64,000 bases of DNA from Alphaproteobacteria bacterium UBA2903 (lineage in GTDB: Bacteria; Pseudomonadota; Alphaproteobacteria; CAAGCB01; CAG-977): contig DEDN01000030.1 of the NCBI GenBank assembly GCA_002349565.1, positions 9,184-73,183 on the forward strand. Direction: 5' to 3'. Each line of letters opens with the position of its first letter. The first letter of the stretch is position 1. The notes under the pieces are model-generated. The model was not told where the DNA came from. It made no database searches and saw only the letters and a program-made list of their open reading frames with translations. Made by a program: the position numbers and the translations under genes. This document shows positions 3,584 through 26,179 of this stretch, piece by piece.

Positions 3584-3746
3584 GTCAATATCAAACATCC
3601 TGCAAATGGATCGCCGCGTCGCTTCGCTCCTCGTGATGACGAACAAGGTTCAATGCCTGTACGGGACTGCCGCGCCCCTGTGGGGGCTCGCAGTTTCGAT
3701 TCTAAAAAACACTTATTCTATTGAAATCGCCCGCAAAGTCGGTCTG

Positions 3747-3995
3747 CGTCCCGAACTGAAAGCGGCAGCAACGTACGACTTTGCCCAAGACAACGAAGAC
3801 CGCATTGCCATGCTGCCCGATGAAACGGTGTATTCCGTCAAAGGCAAGCCTTTGGAAAAATTCGGCGTGGAAGCGGGCGCGGATCTGTTTATGACGTTCG
3901 GCAACAGCAGCGAAATCAACCTAACTTACGAAGGCAGATTCCGCAAAAATTTCCAAGACCACACCGCTATGCTCAGCTTCAAGGTCAATTTCTGA
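3747..3995 (+). pseudogene. Remnant of an autotransporter beta-barrel (C-terminal approximately 83 aa only)
   Basis: The C-terminus of ORF 3606..3995 (RPELKAAATYDF...FGVEAGADLFMTFGNSSEINLTYEGRF...SFKVNF) aligns with the last approximately 83 aa of the large autotransporter at 21718..24216 (MPELKAAATYDF...FGIEAGAGFSMNFGKSASLSLLYDGMF...NAKINF). No passenger domain or signal peptide lies upstream. Confidence 0.6.
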
Positions 3996-3997
3996 AG

Positions 3998-4975
3998 TTA
4001 CCGTTTTTCCAGATAGTTCATCGGATCGACGGCTTTTGTTCCGCGGCGGATTTCAAAGTGCAGCTGCGGTTCTTTGGCGTTGCCCGTTTTGCCCGCTTTC
4101 GCCATCGGCTGCCCGCGTTTGACGGTATCGCCGCGCTTGACCAGAAATTCCTTGTTGTGCGCATACGCGGTAATCCACCCGTCGGCGTGTTTGACCAGCA
4201 GCAGATTGCCAAATCCTTTCAGTTCGTTGCCCGCGTAAGCCACAACGCCGTTTTCCGCGGCGCGGACAAAAGTCCCTTCGGCGACTTTGATATTGATGCC
4301 GTCGTTGTGTCGCCCTCCCCCCGCCGAACCGAATTTGTTCATGACCGTGCCATTAACGGGCCAAGCAAACTTGGCTTTGGCGCGATCGGGCGGCGCAGGC
4401 AGACGCGCCGCCGTTTTGCGGGTTGTTTTCTTGCTTGATTTGGCGGATTTCGCCGCCGTTTTTTTCACGGTCGTTTTGGCGGGGGTGTTTTTCAACGCAA
4501 CCCAGCGTTCCGTCGGTTCAACGACAGATCCAGGCAGCTTTAAAATCTGTCCCAGATAAATCGAATACGGCGCGTACAGGTTGTTCGTGCGGGTCAGCAC
4601 GCTCATATCCACGTTATAACGGCGGGAAATGCTGTAAATGGTGTCGCCCTTTTGAACAACGTGAACGGACGGTTCGGGCAGACGAAGACGCGCCCCTTTG
4701 GACAGGATGAACGGCGGTTTGAGGTTGTTGACCTCGATCATTGAACGGATGGGGACGTTATAGCGGCGGGACAAGGAATAAACCGTATCGCCTTTATGCA
4801 CTGTCACATACGACGGCGACAGGCTTTGCACACGGTATTGTTCGCGGTAATAGGGCGAATTTTGCGCTTTGACGGGCGCATAATATCCGCCGCGATTCAG
4901 CACGACGCCCGAACACCCCGCCAAAGCGGCGGCAAGCGCGGCAATCCCGACAATCCTTTTCAAGTCCCATTCCAT
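3998..4975 (-). CDS. LysM-domain M23 family metallopeptidase lipoprotein (NlpD-like murein hydrolase activator)
   Basis: A lipoprotein signal with lipobox (LAGC) is present. There are two LysM repeats (HKGDTVYSLSRRYNV... and QKGDTIYSISRRYNV...). The C-terminal M23 domain reads GINIKVAEGTFVRAAENGVVAYAG...GWITAYAHN...PQLHFEIR. Confidence 0.8.
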   Translation of the reverse strand: MEWDLKRIVGIAALAAALAGCSGVVLNRGGYYAPVKAQNSPYYREQYRVQSLSPSYVTVHKGDTVYSLSRRYNVPIRSMIEVNNLKPPFILSKGARLRLPEPSVHVVQKGDTIYSISRRYNVDMSVLTRTNNLYAPYSIYLGQILKLPGSVVEPTERWVALKNTPAKTTVKKTAAKSAKSSKKTTRKTAARLPAPPDRAKAKFAWPVNGTVMNKFGSAGGGRHNDGINIKVAEGTFVRAAENGVVAYAGNELKGFGNLLLVKHADGWITAYAHNKEFLVKRGDTVKRGQPMAKAGKTGNAKEPQLHFEIRRGTKAVDPMNYLEKR

Positions 4976-5095
4976 TTTGAAACACCGTTGTTCAAACTTT
5001 ATCAGGATAGACGCAAAAGGTTTAGAAATTTTTAATCTTGGTTTTCGAATGAAAATCGGCTAAAATCCGCCCGTTTTTTGATGAAAGGAAGCTTT

Positions 5096-7675
5096 ATGAC
5101 CGCATCGCCCGAAACCGTTTACGCCGCAGATTACAAAAAGCCCGCTTATCAAATCAGCCGCGTCGATATAACGTTCGACCTTGGTTTGAACCATACGGAA
5201 ATCACGGCGGAAATGCGCGTTCGCCGCGAACCCGACACGGCGGCGGGAACGCCTTTGTTTTTGGACGGCGACGAACTGACTCTGCAAAGCGTCGCGATTG
5301 ACGGCAGGATTTTGACGGAAAGCGAATACGCGCTGTCGGACGACGGCATGACGATTTTCAATCCGCCCGAAAGCTTTGACTTGACAATCAAAACGGTTGT
5401 CAATCCTACGGCGAACACAAAACTGCAAGGGCTTTACGCGTCTGACGGAATCTTGTGTACCAAATGCGAAACGCACGGTTTCCGCCGCATTACCTATTTT
5501 CTTGACCGGCCCGACGTGATGCCCGTTTGGCGCACGACGCTGATTGCCGACAAAGCAAAACTGCCGACTCTGGTTTCCAACGGCAACAAGGAAGAAGCCG
5601 CAGACTTGCCAGACGGACGGCACAAAGCGGTGTTTTTCGATCCCGTGCCGAAAGCGTGCTACTTGTACGCCGTTGTCGCGGGCAATCTGGACAGGCGGCA
5701 GGACAGCTTTGTGACCCGATCGGGACGCAAGGTTGAACTGAATGTCTTTGTCGAGGCGGGCAAAGGCGATATGACCGCTTACGCTTTGGAATCGCTGAAA
5801 CGCGCGATGAAATGGGACGAAGACACGTTCGGGCGCGAATACGACCATGATGTTTTCAACATTGTCGCGGTGTCGAATTTCAATTCGGGCGCATGCGAAA
5901 ACACGTCTTTAAACATCTTCAACGACAAATATGTGCTTGCCGACCCCGCCAAAGCGACGGATGCGGATTACGCCAACATCGAAGGCGTCATCGCGCACGA
6001 GTATTTTCACAACTGGTCGGGCAATCGCGTTACTTTGCGCGACTGGTTCGATTTGACGCTGAAAGAAGGCTTGACCGTCTACCGCGATCAAGAATTTTCG
6101 TCCGACATGCGGTCGCGCGCCGTTAAACGGATAGAGGACGTTGCGGCGTTGCGCGCGTTCCAGTTCCCGCAGGACGCAAGCCCCCTCGCCCACCCGATAA
6201 GCCCCGATTCCTATATTTCCGTGCGTTCGCTTTACACCACAACCGTTTACGACAAAGGCGCGGAAGTCATCCGCATGATGGCGCGCATGGCGGGCAAAGA
6301 CAAATTTCGCAAAGGCATGGATTTGTACTTTTCCCGCAACGACGGCAAAGCGGTGACGTGTCACGACTTTGTCGCGGCGATTGCCGACGGCGCGGATTTG
6401 GACTTAAAGCAATTCGAGGATACTTGGTATCATCAGGCGGGAACGCCCGCGGTAACCGCTTCGGGCGTTTATGACGCAAAGGAAAAAACATACTCGCTGA
6501 CTTTGCGGCAATCAACGCCCGCGACACCGAATCAACCCGTCAAGCGTCCTTTTGTCATTCCTTTGCAAATCGGGCTGATGGATAAAAACGGCAAAGACAT
6601 GGCGGACGAAATCGTCGTTTTGACCGAATCCGAACAGACTTTCGTGTTTGAAAACATCCCCGAAAGCCCCGTTTTATCAGGCAACCGCGGCTTTACCGCG
6701 CCGATTTGGTTCAAAGCCGACTATACGCCCGAACAGCGCGCTTTGCTGATGGCAAAAGATTCCGATTTGTTCAACCGCTGGGACGCGGGACAGCAGTTCG
6801 CAATCGATATTTTATTGGCTTTGGTCAAAGCCCCCGCCGCCCCCGTTCCGCCCGCTTTCATAAACGCGCTTAAGGGGTATCTGACCGATGAAATGCCGGA
6901 CAAAGCCTTTGTCGCCAAAGCTTTCATCCTGCCGTCCGAACGCATGCTGGCGGAACAAGTCGCCGTTATCGACGTTGACGCGATTCACCGCGCGCGCGAA
7001 GCTTTGCGCCGCCGTATCGCAACCGAATTGAAAGCGGAACTGCTGAACGCTTACAACGCCAATGCCGCAACGGGGGCTTATGTTCCGAACGCGGCGGATT
7101 CGGGCAAGCGCGCCGTTAAAAATACGGCGTTGGCGTATTTAAGCCTGCTTGACGACACATTGGCGCAAAAACAGTACCGTTCGGCGGCGCAGATGACCGA
7201 CAAAGAAGCCGCCGTCCGCGTGTTTGCAGGCAAAGATTCGCCGCAAGCCCAAGCGATTATGGACGACTTTTACCAAACATACAAAAAAGACTCTTTGGTC
7301 GTCGACAAATGGCTGACAATGCAGGCGACGGCGAACGAAAATGCGCTTTCCACCGTCAAAAAGCTGTTGCGCCACGAAGCGTTTTCCATAACCAACCCGA
7401 ACAAAGTCCGCGCGCTTATCGGCGCGTTTGCCGCCAATCCGACGGCACTGCACAAAGCGGACGGTTCGGGTTATGACTTCATCGTTGAACAAACACTTGC
7501 CGTTGACAAAATCAATCCGCAAATCGCGGCGACCATCCCTGTTGCTTTGGGAATGTGGAAAAAATTCGACGCACGGCGGCAGACGTTGATGAAAAACGCC
7601 CTTGTTCGCCTGATGAACACGCCCGATTTATCGCCGAACACTTTTGAAATCGTGTCAAAGTCGCTGAAAGGATAA
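5096..7675 (+). CDS. pepN: Aminopeptidase N (M1 family zinc metallopeptidase)
   Basis: It has the gluzincin motif HEYFHNWSGNRVT...LKEGLTVY, and the N-terminus is PepN-like (YKKPAYQISRVDITFDL). The start was chosen at the ATG at 5096, which has an AAAGGAAG RBS. The gene encodes about 859 aa. Confidence 0.9.
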   Translation: MTASPETVYAADYKKPAYQISRVDITFDLGLNHTEITAEMRVRREPDTAAGTPLFLDGDELTLQSVAIDGRILTESEYALSDDGMTIFNPPESFDLTIKTVVNPTANTKLQGLYASDGILCTKCETHGFRRITYFLDRPDVMPVWRTTLIADKAKLPTLVSNGNKEEAADLPDGRHKAVFFDPVPKACYLYAVVAGNLDRRQDSFVTRSGRKVELNVFVEAGKGDMTAYALESLKRAMKWDEDTFGREYDHDVFNIVAVSNFNSGACENTSLNIFNDKYVLADPAKATDADYANIEGVIAHEYFHNWSGNRVTLRDWFDLTLKEGLTVYRDQEFSSDMRSRAVKRIEDVAALRAFQFPQDASPLAHPISPDSYISVRSLYTTTVYDKGAEVIRMMARMAGKDKFRKGMDLYFSRNDGKAVTCHDFVAAIADGADLDLKQFEDTWYHQAGTPAVTASGVYDAKEKTYSLTLRQSTPATPNQPVKRPFVIPLQIGLMDKNGKDMADEIVVLTESEQTFVFENIPESPVLSGNRGFTAPIWFKADYTPEQRALLMAKDSDLFNRWDAGQQFAIDILLALVKAPAAPVPPAFINALKGYLTDEMPDKAFVAKAFILPSERMLAEQVAVIDVDAIHRAREALRRRIATELKAELLNAYNANAATGAYVPNAADSGKRAVKNTALAYLSLLDDTLAQKQYRSAAQMTDKEAAVRVFAGKDSPQAQAIMDDFYQTYKKDSLVVDKWLTMQATANENALSTVKKLLRHEAFSITNPNKVRALIGAFAANPTALHKADGSGYDFIVEQTLAVDKINPQIAATIPVALGMWKKFDARRQTLMKNALVRLMNTPDLSPNTFEIVSKSLKG

Positions 7676-7680
7676 CCCCC

Positions 7681-8166
7681 GTGAACAAAACCGTTTTGAC
7701 AGGAATTATTTGCTTTGCGGGGGGGGCGGCGACGGTCGCTTTTGCCCCGCGGGAACGGCTTCCCCTGCCCTTGGAAGCCAAACTGACGTCGCAGGGACGC
7801 GAAATCGTGCGCGATTTGGAACAAAAGCTGAATACGCTTGATTACGCCGATGTTTTGGCGGAACAAACGAAAATTCTGCAAGCCCTTGCCCAAAAACAGC
7901 CCGACTTGGCACAGGCGGAAACTTATGCCGCTGTTCTGCGCGAAAAGCAAGCCGAACTGCAATCCGCCGCTTTGCGTGCGGAAATCGGGGAAATCGCAAA
8001 AATGCCCCTGTCCGACCGCGAAGCCTACCGCGCGTACCGTTTGAAGAACAAAGAGGCTTTGAAACGGCAAATTCTGCTAATTCCTTTGCTGATTGAAGCG
8101 GATTTGGAACCGTCGGGCGACCGTCCGCGCGACAAAATCTTTAGAAAAATCGGGAAACTGCAATGA
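7681..8166 (+). CDS. Hypothetical exported coiled-coil protein
   Basis: A GTG start lies 6 nt after the pepN stop. The N-terminus is hydrophobic (VLTGIICFAGGAATVAFA), and the remainder is Ala/Gln/Glu/Leu-rich helical. The stop overlaps the ybaK start (ATGA). Confidence 0.45.
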   Translation: MNKTVLTGIICFAGGAATVAFAPRERLPLPLEAKLTSQGREIVRDLEQKLNTLDYADVLAEQTKILQALAQKQPDLAQAETYAAVLREKQAELQSAALRAEIGEIAKMPLSDREAYRAYRLKNKEALKRQILLIPLLIEADLEPSGDRPRDKIFRKIGKLQ

Positions 8167-19366: not shown

Positions 19367-20080
19367 ATGAAAGACACCGGACTGAAATCTTTTTACTCGT
19401 CAATGCTTGCGCCCTGCCCGTATATTGCGGGACGCGAGGAATCGAAACTGGCGGTTGACATATCGGGCGCGTTTGCATCGGATTGGAACAATTTGCTGAG
19501 CCGCGCCGGTTTTCGACGCTCGCACAGCGTTTGCTACATTCCCGCATGCCCGAATTGCAGCGAATGCATATCCGTGCGCATTCCCGTCGCGGAATTTCAG
19601 CCGTCGAAAAAAATGCGCAAAGTTCTGCGAATCAACGAAAACGCCAAAATCGCTTTTACGCCGAACATTGCCACAACGGAACAATTCGACCTGTTTGCGG
19701 CTTATTTGCTCTGCCGCCATGCCGAAAGCGATATGACGCAAATGTATTACGAAGAATACCGCGCCATGATTGAAGACGCCAATGTCGATTCCGTTTTGAT
19801 GGAAGTGCGCGAAAACGCGACCCTGCAAGCCGCGATGCTGGTTGATGTTCTGGATGACGGGTTGTCGGCGGTTTACAGCTTTTTCGACCCGAAGCAGCGC
19901 AGGCGCAGCTTAGGGACTTTTATGATTTTAAAGCTGATTGAAGAAGCGCGGAAAATCGGACTGCCGTATGTTTATCCGGGGTATTGGATAAAATCCGTGT
20001 CCAATATGGCGTACAAAGCGAAATTCCAGCCGCTGGAATACTTTGTCAACGGAATGTGGACGCGCTCACTCCCCGATTAA
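19367..20080 (+). CDS. bpt: Arginyl/leucyl-tRNA--protein transferase (Bpt / Ate1-like, N-end rule)
   Basis: It is 237 aa. The Cys cluster CYIPACPNCSEC and the C-terminal GNAT-like fold motifs (FDLFAAYLLCRH, YVYPGYWI) are typical of bacterial Bpt. Confidence 0.8.
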   Translation: MKDTGLKSFYSSMLAPCPYIAGREESKLAVDISGAFASDWNNLLSRAGFRRSHSVCYIPACPNCSECISVRIPVAEFQPSKKMRKVLRINENAKIAFTPNIATTEQFDLFAAYLLCRHAESDMTQMYYEEYRAMIEDANVDSVLMEVRENATLQAAMLVDVLDDGLSAVYSFFDPKQRRRSLGTFMILKLIEEARKIGLPYVYPGYWIKSVSNMAYKAKFQPLEYFVNGMWTRSLPD

Positions 20081-20485
20081 ATGCAGCACGATGTTGCGAA
20101 TGTGCGCTTCGGCGCGGTGTTCGCAAACATACAAAGCCTGCCACCGTCCAAACGCAGGCAATCCTTTGACAACGGGAATGCCGACGGAAACATCCGTCAA
20201 AGACGTGCGGATATGGGCGGGCATATCGTCTTTGCCCTCGTAAGTATGGCGGTACAGGCGGTTGTCCTGCGGAACGGCGCGGTCGAAAAAGTCTTTCAAG
20301 TCCAGCATCACATCGGGATCAGCGTTTTCCTGAATGGTCAAGCTGGCGGACGTGTGCGTCATAAACACGGTCAGCAATCCCGTTTGAATCCCGCTTTGCC
20401 GCACAAAATCGCATACGGCGTTCGTAATGTTGACAAAGCTTTCGGGCTTGGTTTGCACGGAAAAAACGGTTTGCTTTTGAATCAT
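20066..20485 (-). CDS. yjbQ: YjbQ/UPF0047 family protein (secondary thiamine-phosphate synthase-like)
   Basis: It is 139 aa and has the conserved motifs GLLTVFMTHTSASLTIQEN and HIRTSLTDVSVGIPV. Confidence 0.8.
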   Translation of the reverse strand: MIQKQTVFSVQTKPESFVNITNAVCDFVRQSGIQTGLLTVFMTHTSASLTIQENADPDVMLDLKDFFDRAVPQDNRLYRHTYEGKDDMPAHIRTSLTDVSVGIPVVKGLPAFGRWQALYVCEHRAEAHIRNIVLHLIGE

Positions 20486-20910
20486 TTGTACAAATTCCGT
20501 TCGTCGGTCTGTTCCGCCTGTTCGCGGTCAAGCAGCGGTTTGACGGAAGCCCCGTCCAGCGGCAGGCTTTTGACATGGCGGCATTTTGCCGTATATTCAC
20601 GCACAACTTTGTAATCGGCGGCTTCGGCAATCAGGACGGTTTCCGCCTGCGCCAGATAAGGGCGGGCATCGGGATGGATAAAGTCCAGCAAAACGGATTG
20701 TTCGGGGGTGCGGTACAGCAAAGCATGCGCCCCGCCGTCATAAAGCAGCACGGACGATTTCGGCGCGCCGTCCTTGGCATGAATGGAAATCATCACTTCG
20801 CCGTTTTTGTTCAAGTGAAGCTCGTAAAACGATTCTTGCTGCGGTTTTTTAGCCAAAACGCCACCTCGTTGTTTTTTTGGAATTATAGACGCAATTCCCC
20901 TTTTTTTCAA
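20482..20910 (-). CDS. Hypothetical protein
   Basis: The ORF runs to the yjbQ start with a 4-nt overlap. Its amino-acid composition is protein-like, and the competing plus-strand ORF is Arg/Gly-rich junk. The exact start is uncertain; an internal Met (MISIHAKDG) is possible. Confidence 0.4.
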   Translation of the reverse strand: MKKRGIASIIPKKQRGGVLAKKPQQESFYELHLNKNGEVMISIHAKDGAPKSSVLLYDGGAHALLYRTPEQSVLLDFIHPDARPYLAQAETVLIAEAADYKVVREYTAKCRHVKSLPLDGASVKPLLDREQAEQTDERNLYK

Positions 20911-20963
20911 TCGCTTTTATGATATACTGACTGCAACTTAACTTTTAAAAACAGGAGTTTATT

Positions 20964-21521
20964 ATGCATCCTTGGCATGACGTTGAGCTGATCGGAACCA
21001 AAGTTCCGCAATTCGTTCCCGCGGTTATCGAGGTTCCCAAAGGTTCAAAATACAAATACGAACTGGACAAGCCCAGCGGTTTAATCCGCGTTGACCGCGT
21101 GCTGTATTCCAGCGTTCATTATCCCGCAAACTACGGGCTGATTCCCCGTACTTACTGCGAAGATCACGACCCGCTGGACATTCTGGTTTTGGGACAGGAA
21201 CCTGTTTTCCCGCTGACAATCATGTCTGCGCGCCCCATCGGCGTGATGAAGATGATCGATCAGGGCGAAGCGGACGACAAAATCATCGCCGTCCACGCCG
21301 ACGACCCCGAATACGCGCACTATTCGTCCATTGACGAACTGCCGCCGCACCGCATGATCGAGGTTCAGCGTTTCTTTGAAGATTACAAAAAACTGGAAAA
21401 CAAAACCGTGGTGGTTGAGGGCTTTCTTGACCAAAACGAAGCGTTCAAAGTCATTTTGAAAGCGATTGAAGAATACGAACGCGTCAAAGAAACTTTGGTC
21501 GGCTATAAAAAACACGACTGA
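20964..21521 (+). CDS. ppa: Inorganic pyrophosphatase (family I)
   Basis: It has [10 protein letters not shown] and the DDKIIAV motifs, and is 185 aa. Confidence 0.9.
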
Positions 21522-21640: not shown

Positions 21641-21687
21641 CAGACCGCGGCTTCACTACCCGCGGTCAACTTTTTCGGGCAACAAAA

Positions 21688-21718
21688 AAAGGCGGAGAAT
21701 TTTCCCCGCCTTTTGCTT
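21688..21718. terminator. Bidirectional intrinsic terminator (A7-GGCGG...CCGCC-T4) at the 3' end of the autotransporter gene
   Basis: The sequence aaaaaaaggcggagaattttccccgcctttt was read directly. It serves the minus-strand autotransporter, whose stop is at 21718, and any plus-strand read-through from ppa. Confidence 0.5.
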
Positions 21719-24700
21719 TAAAAGTTGATTTTCGCATTCATCACAACGGAATGGCTTTCCAGTTTTCCTTGGAACATACCGTCGTACAAAAGGGACAGGC
21801 TGGCGGATTTGCCGAAATTCATTGAAAAACCCGCCCCCGCTTCAATGCCGAACCGTTTGTCTTGGTCCGTTTCAACGATATAGCTTGTGCCGTTGGGCAG
21901 CACCGCGGTCCTGTCGCTGCCGGTGCGGACAAAATCGTATGTGGCGGCGGCTTTCAGTTCCGGCATAAACAAAACGGGGGTCTTCCCTTTCAGACGATAC
22001 CGTTTTGACAGCTTGAATCCGAGGACAGAGGTTGCGGCGGAACTGTTTTTGTCTTCCAGCTCAACCCCCAAAGCATCGGTGTAAGCCTTTTGATGCGTGT
22101 TGATGAAGCGCACGGCGAATTCGGGGGACAACAGCACGGGAGCGGCATAGCCGAACGCGATTTGCGCGCTGATCGTGTTGGTCTGGTATTCGCTTTCCAA
22201 TTTCGCGATTTTTGTTGTGTCGTTGTAGGAGGAACGACCGAAGCCCGCAAAAAAGTTCGTGTAGAACCGTTTGGGCTGATACTGGGCGTACACAAAACCC
22301 GTTTGCGTGTCAACATCGACATCGGATCTGTCCGCGTCAATGGATGTCGAAGCATAGGAATACCCCAATCCGACTTTGAAATCATCGGAAAGATAGGCTT
22401 CCATACCCGCCGCAAACCCTGCCGAATCGGATGAAAAGCCCTCTGTTCCGCGCTGTTCGGCGTGGTTGTACAGCCCTTGCGCCCAAACCGCGCCGTTTCC
22501 TGCTTCGTAATCGCCGCCGGAACGTCCGTACATCCGTCTGTATCCGGCAAAACGGGGCGCGCTCGGCATATTAAAGCGGGTGGACACGACATTGATAACG
22601 TTTTTGGCGTGGTTTTCGTCAATCAGGATTCCGAATTTCGACAAATCGGGGGCGATTTCGCGCATAACTTGGTATTTCTTTTCGGTATCGCCGTCAAACT
22701 TTGTCAGCAAATCGTCGATTTTATTCAAAGCGTCTTGCTGTTTGTCCGTCAGCTTGTCCAAATCTTTGTCGTTCAGATCCAGAATTTTCAAAGCGTCCTT
22801 GATAACGGGATGAACTTCCATGTCTTTGACCATCGAGGCAGCTGACAAGCGCAATATGTACAGATCTCCACCGTCCCAGTTCGTCAAAGCTCCGATTTTC
22901 GAAGCGTCCGCAGGGTCGAAATATTTTGCCGAAACCGCATAACGGCTTGTCAAATAGTCGCCGAATTTGAACCCCGATCCTTCGGTGATGTGATACAGCG
23001 TCGTTTTGGTGGTGGATGCCGTCCCCATTTCCAGCTTGATCGTAACGTTTTCCGCATTGGCGGTGATGATGGGCGTGGTCTTTGCGGCATCGGTCAATAT
23101 GGCGGAAATCGTCCCGCCCGTGATGTTGTCCGCTTTCAACGGGGTCGCCCCGATGTCCAGCGTTTTGCTGTCGCCGATGCCGATATCGCGGAATGAAAAG
23201 CCGTAGCCGCGGGTCACGTCGCTTAACGCGTAATCGGCATTAAAGTTCACATTCGCCGATCCCGACAGCGTGCCGTTCAGACGCGCCGATGAGGTTTGAA
23301 AATCAATCGTCGCGCCGTCGGCGGCGACATCGCCGATCATCGTTCCTTTTAACTCAAGGGTGGAAGCACCGTCCAAATGCAATTTCTCGTCTGCGGACGA
23401 AAACGTCAAAACGGCGTTGTCGGCGACATCCAAAACAGAGCCGACAAACTGAACTTTACCCGAACGGGCGGACAATTCGTTGTTGCCGTTGGCAATGATT
23501 TTTGAGTTTTCGACATATATGTTGCCCGCCTCGAAAGCCACACTTAAAGGAGTAACCATGTAGGGTTGTACATTATATACAGGGGCTTTTTCATTTGACA
23601 AACTGTCGTTGATCAGCTTTGCATTGTCGTTCAGCACAAATGTCGAATTGACAATCGTTACATCCGCCCCGTAACCATTTTTCAAAGTGTTGTTGAAGTC
23701 TTCATAATCAAACGTCATCCATTCTCTAAAACCTGCTTCATCATTGCACCTCGATTGGATTTCTTCTTTGGTGGAAGAACTGCCGAAAATCTTTTTTGTA
23801 AAATCCGTCAATGATTCGCCATCTCCGTAAACATCTTCAACAAGGAAGTCTACGGCAGTCTTGATTTCATCGGCTGTCAATTGACCGCGAAAGAGCAAAA
23901 GAGGACTGTCTTCACTCGAACTGCCGACACTCGAAACCGAAGCCGGAGGTCTGTAGGCGGTGGATGCCAAAGAAGCATATCCGATTCCCGCGGCTGAATT
24001 TCCATTTAAAGTTATTGTCGCATCCGTAAAAGCGACATCATATTTGTCGGCAGAATAAATTTGGGAAGGGGTGTACAATGTTTTGCCATCAATTTGGTAA
24101 ACCAAGATTCCGGTATTTGTAAAATCACCCAAAAAAGAATTGTTGTTCGCCGTGATTTTTTTCGGAAACAGACAGCGCAGAAATTGATGTATCCGAAACG
24201 GAAATCCCCCGTTCACCCGTAACTTTTAAATCCCAAGTCGAAATTAACGGATATTCAGGAACATTATATCCCAGCCCATTTGATTTGTATATTGTGTTGA
24301 AAGACACCTTGTCGGAATCGATGGAAATCGTTTCGGCGTCCAAATATACAAAATCATCCAGAGTGCCGCCCGTAAGGGTGATGGTGCCAGCCTTAAATGC
24401 CGCCGCCCCGAACGTTCCCCCCGAAATTGTAATGCTCCCCGAGTTTTGAGCTCTAAAAGAAACGTCCGAGAAATCGCCGTCCTCAATCGACAAAGCGGCG
24501 GACGCATCGTACCAGCCGCCTTTGTGCGTTCCGCCCTTGATTGTGATATCCGGTGCGTCAATGTCTGTATCCGAAAAATCACCGGCTTCAATCAGTAAAG
24601 AATCTTCATCGGAAAGATATTCATTTTTATGTGGTCCCTCCGAAATTGTTGTTGCCGCTTCGACGATATAAGGAAAAAACGTTAAATTCGCCAAAAAACA

Positions 24701-24769
24701 TTTGATTAAAACGGAACGGTAACGGGCAGACAATATACCCGATGCGGATTTCGATAATTTCATAAGCAT
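21718..24769 (-). pseudogene. Autotransporter (type Va secretion) adhesin/protease-like protein, about 1016 aa, interrupted by a frameshift in an A7 (T7 on the plus strand) homopolymer
   Basis: ORF 24125..24769 encodes an extended signal peptide (MLMKLSKSASGILSARYRSVLIKCFLANLTFFPYIVEAATT) and the start of a beta-helical passenger. It stops at TGA 24125. ORF 21718..24216, in a different frame, continues the passenger and ends with a canonical beta-barrel (…YDGMFQGKLESHSVVMNAKINF). Deleting one A from the minus-strand A7 at about 24156-24162 fuses the frames (…LSVSEK-ITANNNSFLGDF…). Confidence 0.7.
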
Positions 24770-24942
24770 CTCTACCCCTTGTGCAAGATATCATTAGAAA
24801 AAATTCAGTACTGTTTTGATATGAAGTTTGGGCTACTCTCCCTAAAACATACAATTCCTATTTTCAGGATACATCTCGATAATTGTATTGGCAAGGATTT
24901 TTTTATTTTTGATTATGTGCGTCAATTTTCAGAATACAAAAA

Positions 24943-24988: not shown

Positions 24989-25468
24989 TTAACGTTTGGA
25001 GAACTGATAGCTGCGGCGCGCTTTGGCTTTGCCGTATTTTTTGCGTTCGACGACGCGCGGATCGCGTGTCAGGAAGCCTGCGCGTTTCAGCGCGGTGTGC
25101 AATTCCGGTTCATAGTTATCCAAGCAACGGCTGATACCGTGGCGGATAGCCCCCGCCTGACCCGACAAACCGCCGCCGGAAACGGTAACAACGGCGTCAA
25201 ACTGACCTTCGCGGTTTGTAACCGCAAACGGCTGGTTGATCAGCATGCGCAGAACGGGACGGGTAAAGTAAACGTCCAATTCCTTGCCGTTGATGGTGAT
25301 TTTGCCCGAACCGGCTTTCAGCCAAACGCGGGCGGAAGCGTCTTTGCGGCGACCCGTGGCATAAGCACGACCGAATTTGTCGCGCTGCGGTTCACGAACG
25401 GCGACCGGTTCGGCGGCAATGGCTTCGGCGGTCTGTTTCAAGTCTTCAAAAGATTTGATTTCAGCCAT
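24989..25468 (-). CDS. rpsI: 30S ribosomal protein S9 (long, alphaproteobacterial-type N-terminal extension)
   Basis: It has [15 protein letters not shown]...[17 protein letters not shown]...[18 protein letters not shown] and is 159 aa. Confidence 0.9.
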
Positions 25469-25471
25469 GGA

Positions 25472-25933
25472 TTAGCTCCTTTTGTTTTTCGGGTTCAGCG
25501 CGGCGATGTCCAGAAATTCGGGATTCTGGGCTGCATGCGGGTGTTCTTTGCCGGCATAGACGCGCAGATTCGTCATCTGTTTGCGTCCCAGCGGATTGCG
25601 CGTGATCATGCGTTCAACCGCTTTGATGATAACGCGTTCCGGATGTTCGCCCGCAATGACTTTGCCGGCGGTCACGCCTTTGATGCCGCCGGGATGACCC
25701 GTGTGGCGATAGTACACTTTGTCTTCCAGTTTTTTACCGGTCAAAGCGACTTTTTCCGCATTGATGATGACAACGCAGTCGCCGCAATCCATGTGCGGAG
25801 TGAAAGAGGTTTTATGTTTGCCGCGCAGAATTTTCGCGACAATGCTCGCCAAACGACCCAAAACCAAGTCTTCGGCATCGATCAGATACCACTTCTTTTG
25901 GATATCGGCAGGCTTAACGGATAAGGTCTGCAT
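25472..25933 (-). CDS. rplM: 50S ribosomal protein L13
   Basis: The start is at [30 protein letters not shown] (the ORF track extends 23 codons upstream). The protein is 154 aa. Confidence 0.9.
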
Positions 25934-26179
25934 AGAGTTATTCCCTACATTGAAGTTAAAAACTGCAAGGAAGATACCCAATACCCCGCCTTGTGTCAAC
26001 AAAAATCACAACACAAAAACGATTTATTTTCAATGAGTTATAAAATAGGTATTATTTTACCAACTTTACAGGCGTTAAAAACGGTCGGTTTCGGACGAAA
26101 AACGCGCATTTTTCTTTTTACATTGATTTTTTAATCCGAATCCGCCATAGTTCGGTACATTGCGATGGTGGAAACGATT

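What the first reader, a model, noticed from the sequence alone, without database searches (positions are those of the whole stretch)
24100..24240. Autotransporter ORF split at an A7/T7 homopolymer: phase-variable switch, fresh pseudogene or sequencing error
The signal-peptide/N-passenger ORF (24769->24125) and the passenger/beta-barrel ORF (24216->21718) overlap by 92 nt in different frames. Reading the minus strand, the sequence ...tcc gaa aaa aat cac ggc... gives SEKNH then stop 30 nt later. Removing one A from the A7 run gives SEK-ITANNNSFLGDF..., which is exactly the downstream ORF. A single-base length change in a homopolymer therefore toggles expression of a full surface-exposed autotransporter of about 1016 aa. 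That is the classic slipped-strand phase-variation design, although A7 is at the short end of tracts known to vary. The locus is also AT-richer than the flanks and is bracketed by terminators, which suggests an accessory and possibly horizontally acquired gene.
Basis: seen in the sequence. Interest (0 to 1): 0.65.

Follow-up and report, generated by a model that had tools for sequence, protein, structure and literature searches.

The report
Recently frameshifted autotransporter gene (fresh pseudogene)
A surface-protein (autotransporter) gene of an uncultured gut alphaproteobacterium is really broken by one extra A in a run of seven, but the evidence points to an ordinary recent gene loss, one of several independent knock-outs of this gene, and not to a built-in on/off switch.

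Summary
On the minus strand, ORFs 24769->24125 and 24216->21718 overlap by 92 nt. Removing one A from the A7 run (24156-24162) gives a 1016-aa type Va autotransporter that aligns end to end with about 110 intact homologues.

It is not a sequencing error. The same A7 allele is in an independent assembly from another sample, and its diagnostic 212-aa product is on 8 contigs.

It does not behave like a phase-variation tract:
- All 20 related loci read GGA-AAA-AT (A5) or have A3 at this site.
- The window allele needs a G->A change (a near-invariant Gly becomes Glu) plus one extra A.
- A7 is commonplace here: 32 A/T runs of 7 or more in 64 kb, fewer than shuffles give.
- No A6 or A8 variant or ON allele of this lineage exists in the protein collection.

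A second strain lineage of the same species carries an irreversible 1,279-nt deletion in the same gene, seen on about 14 contigs. Substitutions on the window branch still look purifying (9 synonymous, 4 nonsynonymous), so the loss is recent.

Congeneric species show further independent knock-outs, some at real poly-C tracts (C13/C14/C15, C8/C9). Those tracts are better phase-variation candidates than this A7.

The gene sits in conserved synteny next to ppa, so recent horizontal acquisition is not supported.

The parts
24125..24769 (-). 5' fragment of the autotransporter gene. It encodes the signal peptide and the N-terminal passenger and ends in the frameshift tail EKNHGEQQFFFG plus TGA. The likely true start is the ATG at 24763.
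   Evidence: Homologues start at MKLSKSA. The 212-aa product P0133 is on 8 contigs.
24156..24162 (-). A7 run on the coding strand that carries the +1 frameshift. The G at 24163 precedes it. Relatives read GG+A5 here, so the first A of the run replaces a G (Gly->Glu) and one A is extra.
21718..24155 (-). Remainder of the autotransporter reading frame, with the stop included. It covers the rest of the passenger, the helical linker and the beta barrel, and is open throughout.
21781..22488 (-). Autotransporter beta (translocator) domain, aa 761-996 of the repaired protein. The protein ends ...KINF.
   Evidence: PF03797, E = 3.6e-34, profile positions 1-255 of 255. The best structural match is the NalP translocator 1uyn, target-normalised TM-score 0.70.
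21687..21714 (-). Intrinsic-terminator-like hairpin with a 12-bp stem and a T run, immediately after the stop codon.
24866..24925 (-). Two weak sigma-70-like promoter matches upstream of the start codon. These are consensus matches only.
23314..24592 (-). Segment of 1,279 nt (aa 62-485) that is deleted in a second null allele of the same species (L035, L038). The breakpoints share the microhomology ATTGA. The segment is present in the window.
   Evidence: The products SLLCDD* (P0122, P0134, P0135, P0136) are on 1+9+3+1 contigs.

Best explanation
The locus is a conserved, chromosomally syntenic type Va autotransporter gene. It was inactivated recently in this clone by a small mutation at a short A run. 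The ancestral TCC-GGA-AAA-ATC (Ser-Gly-Lys-Ile) became TCC-GAAAAAAA-TC, which is a G->A change plus one extra A. Translation from the signal-peptide start therefore stops 11 codons after the run. The barrel-encoding part has no signal peptide of its own, so no surface protein is made. The allele is inherited clonally and is stable at consensus level. It is one of at least two independent null alleles of this gene in the species, and one of about eight in the genus. This fast-evolving surface protein is therefore lost repeatedly, either because it is dispensable or because losing it is favoured. The A7 run is a product of the mutation, not an evolved switch. What is shown: the lesion, its reproducibility, the absence of the tract in relatives, the second null allele, and the recency. 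What is inferred: no export of the downstream product, and the reason for recurrent loss.
For: - The lesion is real and the repaired frame aligns end to end with intact homologues.
- The closest intact allele, L001 (93.9% nt identity), reads GGAAAAA where the window reads GAAAAAAA.
- All 20 related loci have A5 or A3 at the site.
- Gly203 is near-invariant in the family.
- L003, from another sample, has the same A7 and differs from the window at 1 of 10,253 nt.
- The frameshift-specific product is on 8 contigs. No other length variant or full-length allele is in the 90% clusters.
- A second null allele in the same species is a 1,279-nt out-of-frame deletion, with flanks 98.5-99.5% identical to the window, on about 14 contigs.
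- Window-branch substitutions in the C-terminal half are 9 synonymous to 4 nonsynonymous. A neutral expectation is 77% nonsynonymous; binomial p = 5e-4. Most divergence therefore predates the inactivation.
- Congeners show independent knock-outs: a 1-nt deletion in AAA, a 10-nt deletion, a CAA->TAA nonsense change, and poly-C slips.
- A remnant of another autotransporter lies in the same window at 3606-3995.
- Lineage-specific decay of autotransporter genes through frameshifts and stops is documented in Campylobacter capC/capD (PMC7168839).
Against: - Any homopolymer can slip back, and a one-base loss in A7 would reopen the frame. Reversion at a low rate cannot be excluded without read-level data.
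- Apart from the lesion the gene is fully intact, which is also what an OFF-phase gene looks like.
- Congeners do use true simple-sequence tracts in this same gene, so ON/OFF behaviour of the locus as a whole is plausible.
- The 8 contigs with A7 may come from few hosts and one clone, so the sample of tract states is small.
Confidence: 0.8

Rival explanations
1. Phase-variable (contingency) gene. The A7 run slips between A6 (ON) and A7 (OFF) at a raised rate and reversibly toggles the surface autotransporter.
For: - A single-base change in the run restores a perfect 1016-aa frame.
- The gene encodes a surface protein of the class that is often phase-variable, for example nalP with C9-13.
- Congeneric orthologues have poly-C tracts that differ in length between otherwise identical contigs.
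Against: - A7 is below the working cut-offs of T 11 and G 9 in PhasomeIt (PMC5953494).
- The tract is absent from all relatives, which have A5 or A3.
- The tract is not over-represented in the window.
- Only A7 is seen, on 8 contigs, and no ON allele exists in the database.
- An ON revertant would carry Glu at a near-invariant Gly.
- The same species also holds an irreversible deletion allele.
Confidence: 0.1
2. Sequencing or assembly miscall. The real genome has A6 and the gene is intact.
For: Homopolymers are classic sites of indel errors. The window is a metagenome assembly.
Against: - The tract is identical in a separate assembly of a different sample (L003, k141 MEGAHIT), which has one SNP elsewhere in the gene.
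- The diagnostic product is on 8 contigs from NCBI, ENA and Logan pipelines.
- About 25 other A/T runs of 7 or more in the window lie in ORFs that stay open.
- The allele also differs from relatives by a substitution, not only by run length.
Confidence: 0.02
3. Recoding. Transcriptional slippage on the A run, or a +1 ribosomal slip of tRNA-Lys (AAA->AAA), yields some full-length protein from the frameshifted gene.
For: A +1 re-pairing on A AAA AAA gives exactly the S-E-K-I-T-A junction (sequence). From general knowledge, RNA polymerase slips on long A/T runs.
Against: - The site is not conserved in any orthologue.
- The run is shorter than the 9 or more usually needed for appreciable slippage (general knowledge).
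- No Shine-Dalgarno-like stimulator or adjacent stop or rare codon is present (inspection).
- The A_AAA_AAT heptamer would favour a -1 shift, which leads into the wrong frame.
Confidence: 0.05

Closest known systems
Lineage-specific decay of Campylobacter capC/capD autotransporter genes (PMC7168839)
   Same: - Type Va autotransporters are found both intact and inactivated by frameshifts or premature stops.
- Inactive forms track clonal lineages.
- Homopolymer tracts are present in some family members, but inactivation is attributed to pseudogene formation and not to phase variation.
   Different: - The organism differs: an uncultured human-gut alphaproteobacterium known only from metagenomes.
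- The passenger domain is unrelated.
- There is only one lesion per allele here, so the decay is younger.
Neisseria meningitidis NalP and MspA, and Bordetella pertussis bapC: autotransporters switched by intragenic poly-C/poly-G tracts (PMC5953494, PMC1891110)
   Same: - A surface autotransporter is put out of frame by a one-base length change in an intragenic homopolymer.
- The NalP translocator is also the best structural match to the barrel.
- Congeneric orthologues of the window gene do carry C13-C15 and C8/C9 tracts that vary.
   Different: - The window gene has no such tract. Its run is A7, newly created, non-conserved and invariant in all assemblies seen.
- Known switch tracts are G/C runs of 9 or more and are conserved in the species.
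Pertactin-deficient Bordetella pertussis (recurrent independent null alleles of an autotransporter; mentioned in PMC7446907, otherwise general knowledge)
   Same: Several independent inactivating mutations of one surface autotransporter (indels, deletions, a stop codon) circulate in one species or genus. This is consistent with selection against expressing an exposed antigen.
   Different: The selective agent there is known (vaccine immunity). Here it is unknown and neutral loss is not excluded.

Membership tests
Type Va (classical) autotransporter | C-terminal 12-stranded beta-barrel translocator domain (PF03797) | tested here: met
   PF03797 at 119 bits covers profile positions 1-255 of 255, aa 761-996. 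Foldseek best hits are the NalP, Hbp, EspP and BrkA beta domains, target-normalised TM-score up to 0.70.
Type Va (classical) autotransporter | N-terminal Sec signal peptide on the same polypeptide | tested here: inconclusive
   By inspection, MKLSKSASGILSARYRSVLIKCFLANLTFFPYIVEA|AT has a basic N-terminus, a hydrophobic helix (model helix 13-29) and an AxA-like site, and it is conserved in homologues. No signal-peptide predictor was available. In the window it sits on a different ORF from the barrel.
Type Va (classical) autotransporter | Beta-rich (solenoid-like) passenger between the signal peptide and the barrel | tested here: met
   The AlphaFold model has strand-rich segments at 40-266 and 370-640, mostly with pLDDT above 80, and a helical linker before the barrel. 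No sequence match to any solved passenger was found.
Type Va (classical) autotransporter | Uninterrupted reading frame from signal peptide to barrel | tested here: not met
   The frame is split at the A7 run. It is intact in about 110 homologue clusters.
Simple-sequence-repeat phase-variable (contingency) gene | Repeat tract long enough to be hypermutable and longer than chance gives | tested here: not met
   The run is A7. PhasomeIt cut-offs are T 11 and G 9. There are 36 AAAAAAA matches in the window against 103 +/- 14 in shuffles.
Simple-sequence-repeat phase-variable (contingency) gene | Tract-length polymorphism among closely related strains, with both ON and OFF alleles seen | tested here: not met
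   Only A7 is seen: in L002 and L003, and in product P0133 on 8 contigs. No other variant is in the 90% clusters. The sample is small and clonal.
Simple-sequence-repeat phase-variable (contingency) gene | Tract conserved at the orthologous site in relatives | tested here: not met
   20 related loci read GGA AAA AT (A5) or GGA AAC/AAT (A3).
Simple-sequence-repeat phase-variable (contingency) gene | Within-population length heterogeneity (per-read or per-colony) | not testable with these tools
   No read data could be accessed, and the organism is uncultured.
Recent pseudogene | Disabling lesion relative to intact orthologues, reproducible in independent data | tested here: met
Recent pseudogene | Independent null alleles of the same gene in the same species or genus | tested here: met
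   A 1,279-nt deletion allele occurs in the same species. Six further independent disruptions occur in congeners.
Recent pseudogene | Accumulated secondary lesions or relaxed selection (marks an old pseudogene) | tested here: not met
   There is a single lesion. Window-branch changes are 9 synonymous to 4 nonsynonymous, and barrel dN/dS is 0.11. The inactivation is therefore recent.
Programmed frameshift or transcriptional-slippage gene | Slippery site conserved in orthologues, with stimulatory elements | tested here: not met
   The site is absent in all orthologues. No Shine-Dalgarno-like element or adjacent stop is present (inspection). The required shift is +1, whereas the heptamer favours -1.

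The most novel reading that the evidence does not exclude
The locus as a whole, and not this A7 run, may be a genus-wide contingency locus of uncultured human-gut Alphaproteobacteria. It is a very fast-evolving surface autotransporter: the passenger is about 70% nt identical between congeners and the flanking genes about 90%. It is repeatedly switched off. In congeners this happens by slippage at true poly-C tracts (C13 ON against C14 OFF in otherwise identical contigs; C8/C9 at a second site). In lineages without such tracts it happens by ad hoc mutations such as this A7 insertion and the 1.28-kb deletion. That would point to strong fluctuating selection on this antigen in the gut, from IgA or phage. 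The window allele might then still revert at a low rate.
Probability: 0.3. Interest if true: 0.5.

Novelty: new member of a known kind. Interest (0 to 1): 0.27.

Why it matters
For the window itself it matters little. The locus should be annotated as a frameshifted autotransporter pseudogene. It should not be merged into one intact gene or listed as phase-variable.

The wider pattern is mildly useful. It flags one fast-evolving surface protein of a poorly known, uncultured group of human-gut Alphaproteobacteria that is knocked out again and again, partly through real poly-C tracts in congeners. Such a gene is a natural candidate for a target of host immunity or phage. The idea can be tested directly on existing metagenomic reads.

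Tried and rejected
- Sequencing error was rejected. The same tract is in an independent assembly and on 8 contigs, and other A7/A8 runs do not break ORFs.
- Horizontal acquisition was rejected. The gene lies in conserved synteny with ppa, a 124-aa gene and YjbQ in congeners, and the GC difference is only 4 points.
- Rescue by a -1 programmed frameshift on A_AAA_AAT was rejected because it leads to the wrong frame (inspection).
- The truncated homologue P0102 was suspected to be split at the same site. It is a scaffold gap of Ns (L033), so it is an artefact.
- NCBIfam gave no family for either fragment.
- A sequence search of the PDB gave no hit.
- A literature search for this clade together with autotransporters found nothing relevant.
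- The genome-contig scan did not return a species-representative genome carrying a near-identical copy. The organism is therefore named only as an uncultured alphaproteobacterium.
- Other split genes in the window were not systematically searched for by homology. Only ORF continuity at homopolymers was checked.

Full report
OBSERVATION

On the minus strand, an ORF from 24769 to 24125 (214 aa) and an ORF from 24216 to 21718 (832 aa) overlap by 92 nt in different frames. The coding strand reads tcc gaa aaa aat cac ggc gaa caa caa ttc ttt ttt ggg tga. The A run is exactly seven bases, at window 24156-24162. Removing one A gives a single 1016-aa frame that reads ...SVSEK-ITANNNSFLGDF....

The C-terminus carries a complete autotransporter beta domain: PF03797, 119 bits, profile positions 1-255 of 255. 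The protein ends in ...KINF. An AlphaFold model built on 23 sequences has mean pLDDT 65.8. It shows beta-rich passenger segments at 40-266 and 370-640, a helical insert and linker, and a barrel at 759-1015. The best PDB matches are the translocator domains of NalP, Hbp, EspP and BrkA.

Two side remarks are only partly right. The GC difference is modest, 48.6% for the gene against 52.6% for the window. Only the downstream terminator is detectable, at 21714->21687.

IS THE REPAIRED GENE THE REAL GENE?

Yes. A search of the protein collection found 147 relatives. 

IS IT A SEQUENCING ERROR?

No.
- Locus L002 (ERZ925099, an 85-kb contig) is 100% identical to the window over 10.25 kb. It is probably the same assembly.
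- L003 comes from a different sample and assembly (ERZ27279963). It differs at one position in 10,253 and carries the same A7.
- The 212-aa N-terminal product with the frameshift-specific tail EKNHGEQQFFFG is recorded on 8 contigs from NCBI, ENA and Logan.
- The window holds 32 A/T runs of 7 or more. About 25 of the others lie inside long ORFs that stay open, so the assembly is not error-prone at such runs.

IS THE A7 RUN A PHASE-VARIATION TRACT?

Every test that could be run says no.
1. Origin. The closest intact allele is P0123/L001, 93.9% nt identical. It reads GTTTCC-GGAAAAA-TCACGG where the window reads GTTTCC-GAAAAAAA-TCACGG. The window allele therefore needs a G->A substitution (Gly->Glu) as well as an extra A.
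2. Conservation. At the orthologous site, 20 related loci read GGA AAA AT (A5) or GGA AAC/AAT (A3). None has a longer run.
3. Length. A7 is far below the cut-offs used to call phase-variable homopolymers, which are T 11 and G 9 in PhasomeIt (PMC5953494). It is not over-represented: 36 AAAAAAA matches against 103 +/- 14 in dinucleotide shuffles.
4. Polymorphism. The 90%-identity clusters that hold the two fragments contain no A6 or A8 variant and no full-length allele of this lineage.
5. Recoding. A -1 slip on A_AAA_AAT leads to the wrong frame. A +1 slip would work but has no stimulatory context, and the site is not conserved.

WHAT ELSE HAPPENED TO THIS GENE IN THE SAME SPECIES?

Two loci from other samples, L035 and L038, have flanks 98.5-99.5% identical to the window. 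They carry a 1,279-nt out-of-frame deletion that removes aa 62-485. This corresponds to window 23314-24592, and the breakpoints share the microhomology ATTGA. The resulting 60-62-aa products ending ...SLLCDD* are recorded on 9+3+1+1 contigs.

The species thus holds at least two independent null alleles, one of them irreversible. The only intact close allele belongs to a more distant lineage, at 93.9% nt identity. For scale, the exact rpsI and ppa proteins of the window occur on 55 and 38 contigs.

HOW OLD IS THE LESION?

There is only one lesion. Polarised with L001, the window branch has 9 synonymous and 4 nonsynonymous changes in the C-terminal half. A neutral expectation is 77% nonsynonymous, and the binomial p is 5e-4. 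The deletion lineage gives 6:4. Pairwise dN/dS against L001 is 0.11 in the barrel, 0.30 and 0.41 in the middle of the gene, and about 1.0 in the first 203 codons. dS ranges from 0.05 to 0.31 along the gene, which suggests a recombination mosaic. Most divergence therefore accumulated while the gene was functional, and the inactivation is recent.

THE GENUS-WIDE PICTURE

The gene is a syntenic orthologue: autotransporter, then ppa, a 124-aa gene, YjbQ and ATE. Between the window and congeners the flanking genes are 89-93% nt identical. The barrel is about 80% identical and the passenger about 70%. This is a fast-evolving surface gene, not a recent import.

All eight truncated homologues in the hit list, including the window's own allele, were examined at the DNA level.
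- L028 has C14, against C13 in L053. These are contigs of 3,994 and 3,993 nt from two sequencing runs and are identical except for the tract. They are OFF and ON respectively.
- L054 has T+C15 (OFF), against TA+C15 (ON) in L058, at the same site.
- L055 has C9 (OFF), against C8 (in frame) in L029 and L030, at a second site.
- L029 and L030 have a 1-nt deletion in an AAA run.
- L031 and L032 have a 10-nt deletion.
- L056 and L057 have a CAA->TAA nonsense mutation.
- L033 is a scaffold gap, so it is an artefact.

About 6% of allele clusters are therefore disrupted, by many different mutations. Three of the disruptions are at true poly-C tracts that exceed or approach the usual cut-offs. Those tracts, and not the window's A7, are the credible phase-variation candidates in this family. 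The window gene has no G/C run longer than 6.

CONCLUSION

The window shows a real, clonally inherited, recent frameshift pseudogene of a conserved type Va autotransporter. It was created by a small mutation at a short A run. It is one instance of recurrent loss of this surface protein.

The closest documented parallel is the lineage-specific decay of the Campylobacter capC/capD autotransporters (PMC7168839). The mechanistic look-alikes switched by poly-C or poly-G tracts are NalP and MspA (PMC5953494) and bapC (PMC1891110). The window gene fails their defining features.

Low-rate reversion cannot be excluded without read-level data. I put it at about 10%.

Noticed in passing
L028:1109-1122 vs L053:1109-1121; L054:1967-1981 vs L058:2007-2021; L055:1944-1952 vs L029:2164-2171: Congeneric orthologues of the window gene carry intragenic poly-C tracts that encode poly-Pro, and the tract length decides the frame. 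C13 is ON and C14 is OFF in two contigs that are otherwise identical over 3,993 nt. TA+C15 is ON and T+C15 is OFF. At a second site C8 is in frame and C9 is OFF. These are good phase-variation candidates in an uncultured gut alphaproteobacterial genus.
   Followed up: partly
window 23314-24592 (deleted in L035:652-654 and L038:3177-3179): A second null allele of the same gene in the same species. It is a 1,279-nt out-of-frame deletion between ATTGA microhomologies and is recorded on about 14 contigs.
   Followed up: yes
window 3606-3995 (+): A 129-aa ORF whose last ~97 residues are 41% identical to the end of the autotransporter barrel, with partial hits to PF03797 and TIGR01414. It has no passenger or signal peptide upstream and looks like the relic of another, older decayed autotransporter.
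   Followed up: partly
window 7719-7726 (+): The only G/C homopolymer of 7 or more in the window, a G8. It lies in the signal-peptide region (…CFAGGAATV…) of a small ORF at 7681-8166 that has a weak Metal_resist hit. It is in frame here and was not compared with relatives.
   Followed up: no
window 20066-21521 vs 21718-24763, compared with L004-L058: Flanking housekeeping genes are 89-93% nt identical to congeners. The barrel is ~80% identical and the passenger ~70%. dS along the gene against L001 ranges from 0.05 to 0.31. This indicates a fast-evolving, probably recombining surface gene.
   Followed up: partly
window 24989-26002 vs L029, L031, L054-L058 upstream regions: The upstream neighbour of the autotransporter is rpsI-rplM in the window species and a PAS-GGDEF gene in congeners. 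A rearrangement has occurred at the 5' boundary of the locus.
   Followed up: no
L004, L005, L020 (CAVCSV01 contigs): A GenBank MAG titled 'Limosilactobacillus gorillae' carries these alphaproteobacterial autotransporter and ppa contigs, so the record appears mislabelled or mis-binned. L004 also has a C11 tract about 310 nt upstream of its gene start.
   Followed up: no
L007:3001-4329 and 4555-7443 (also L034); L005:29-2659 and 3659-5656: Some congeners have tandem paralogues at the locus. In L007 a short copy (signal peptide plus the C-terminal third) lies in front of the full-length gene.
   Followed up: no
L033:1893-1995: A run of Ns with duplicated flanks in a scaffolded metagenome contig mimics a split gene (P0102). 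This is a caution for counting pseudogenes from protein lengths alone.
   Followed up: yes
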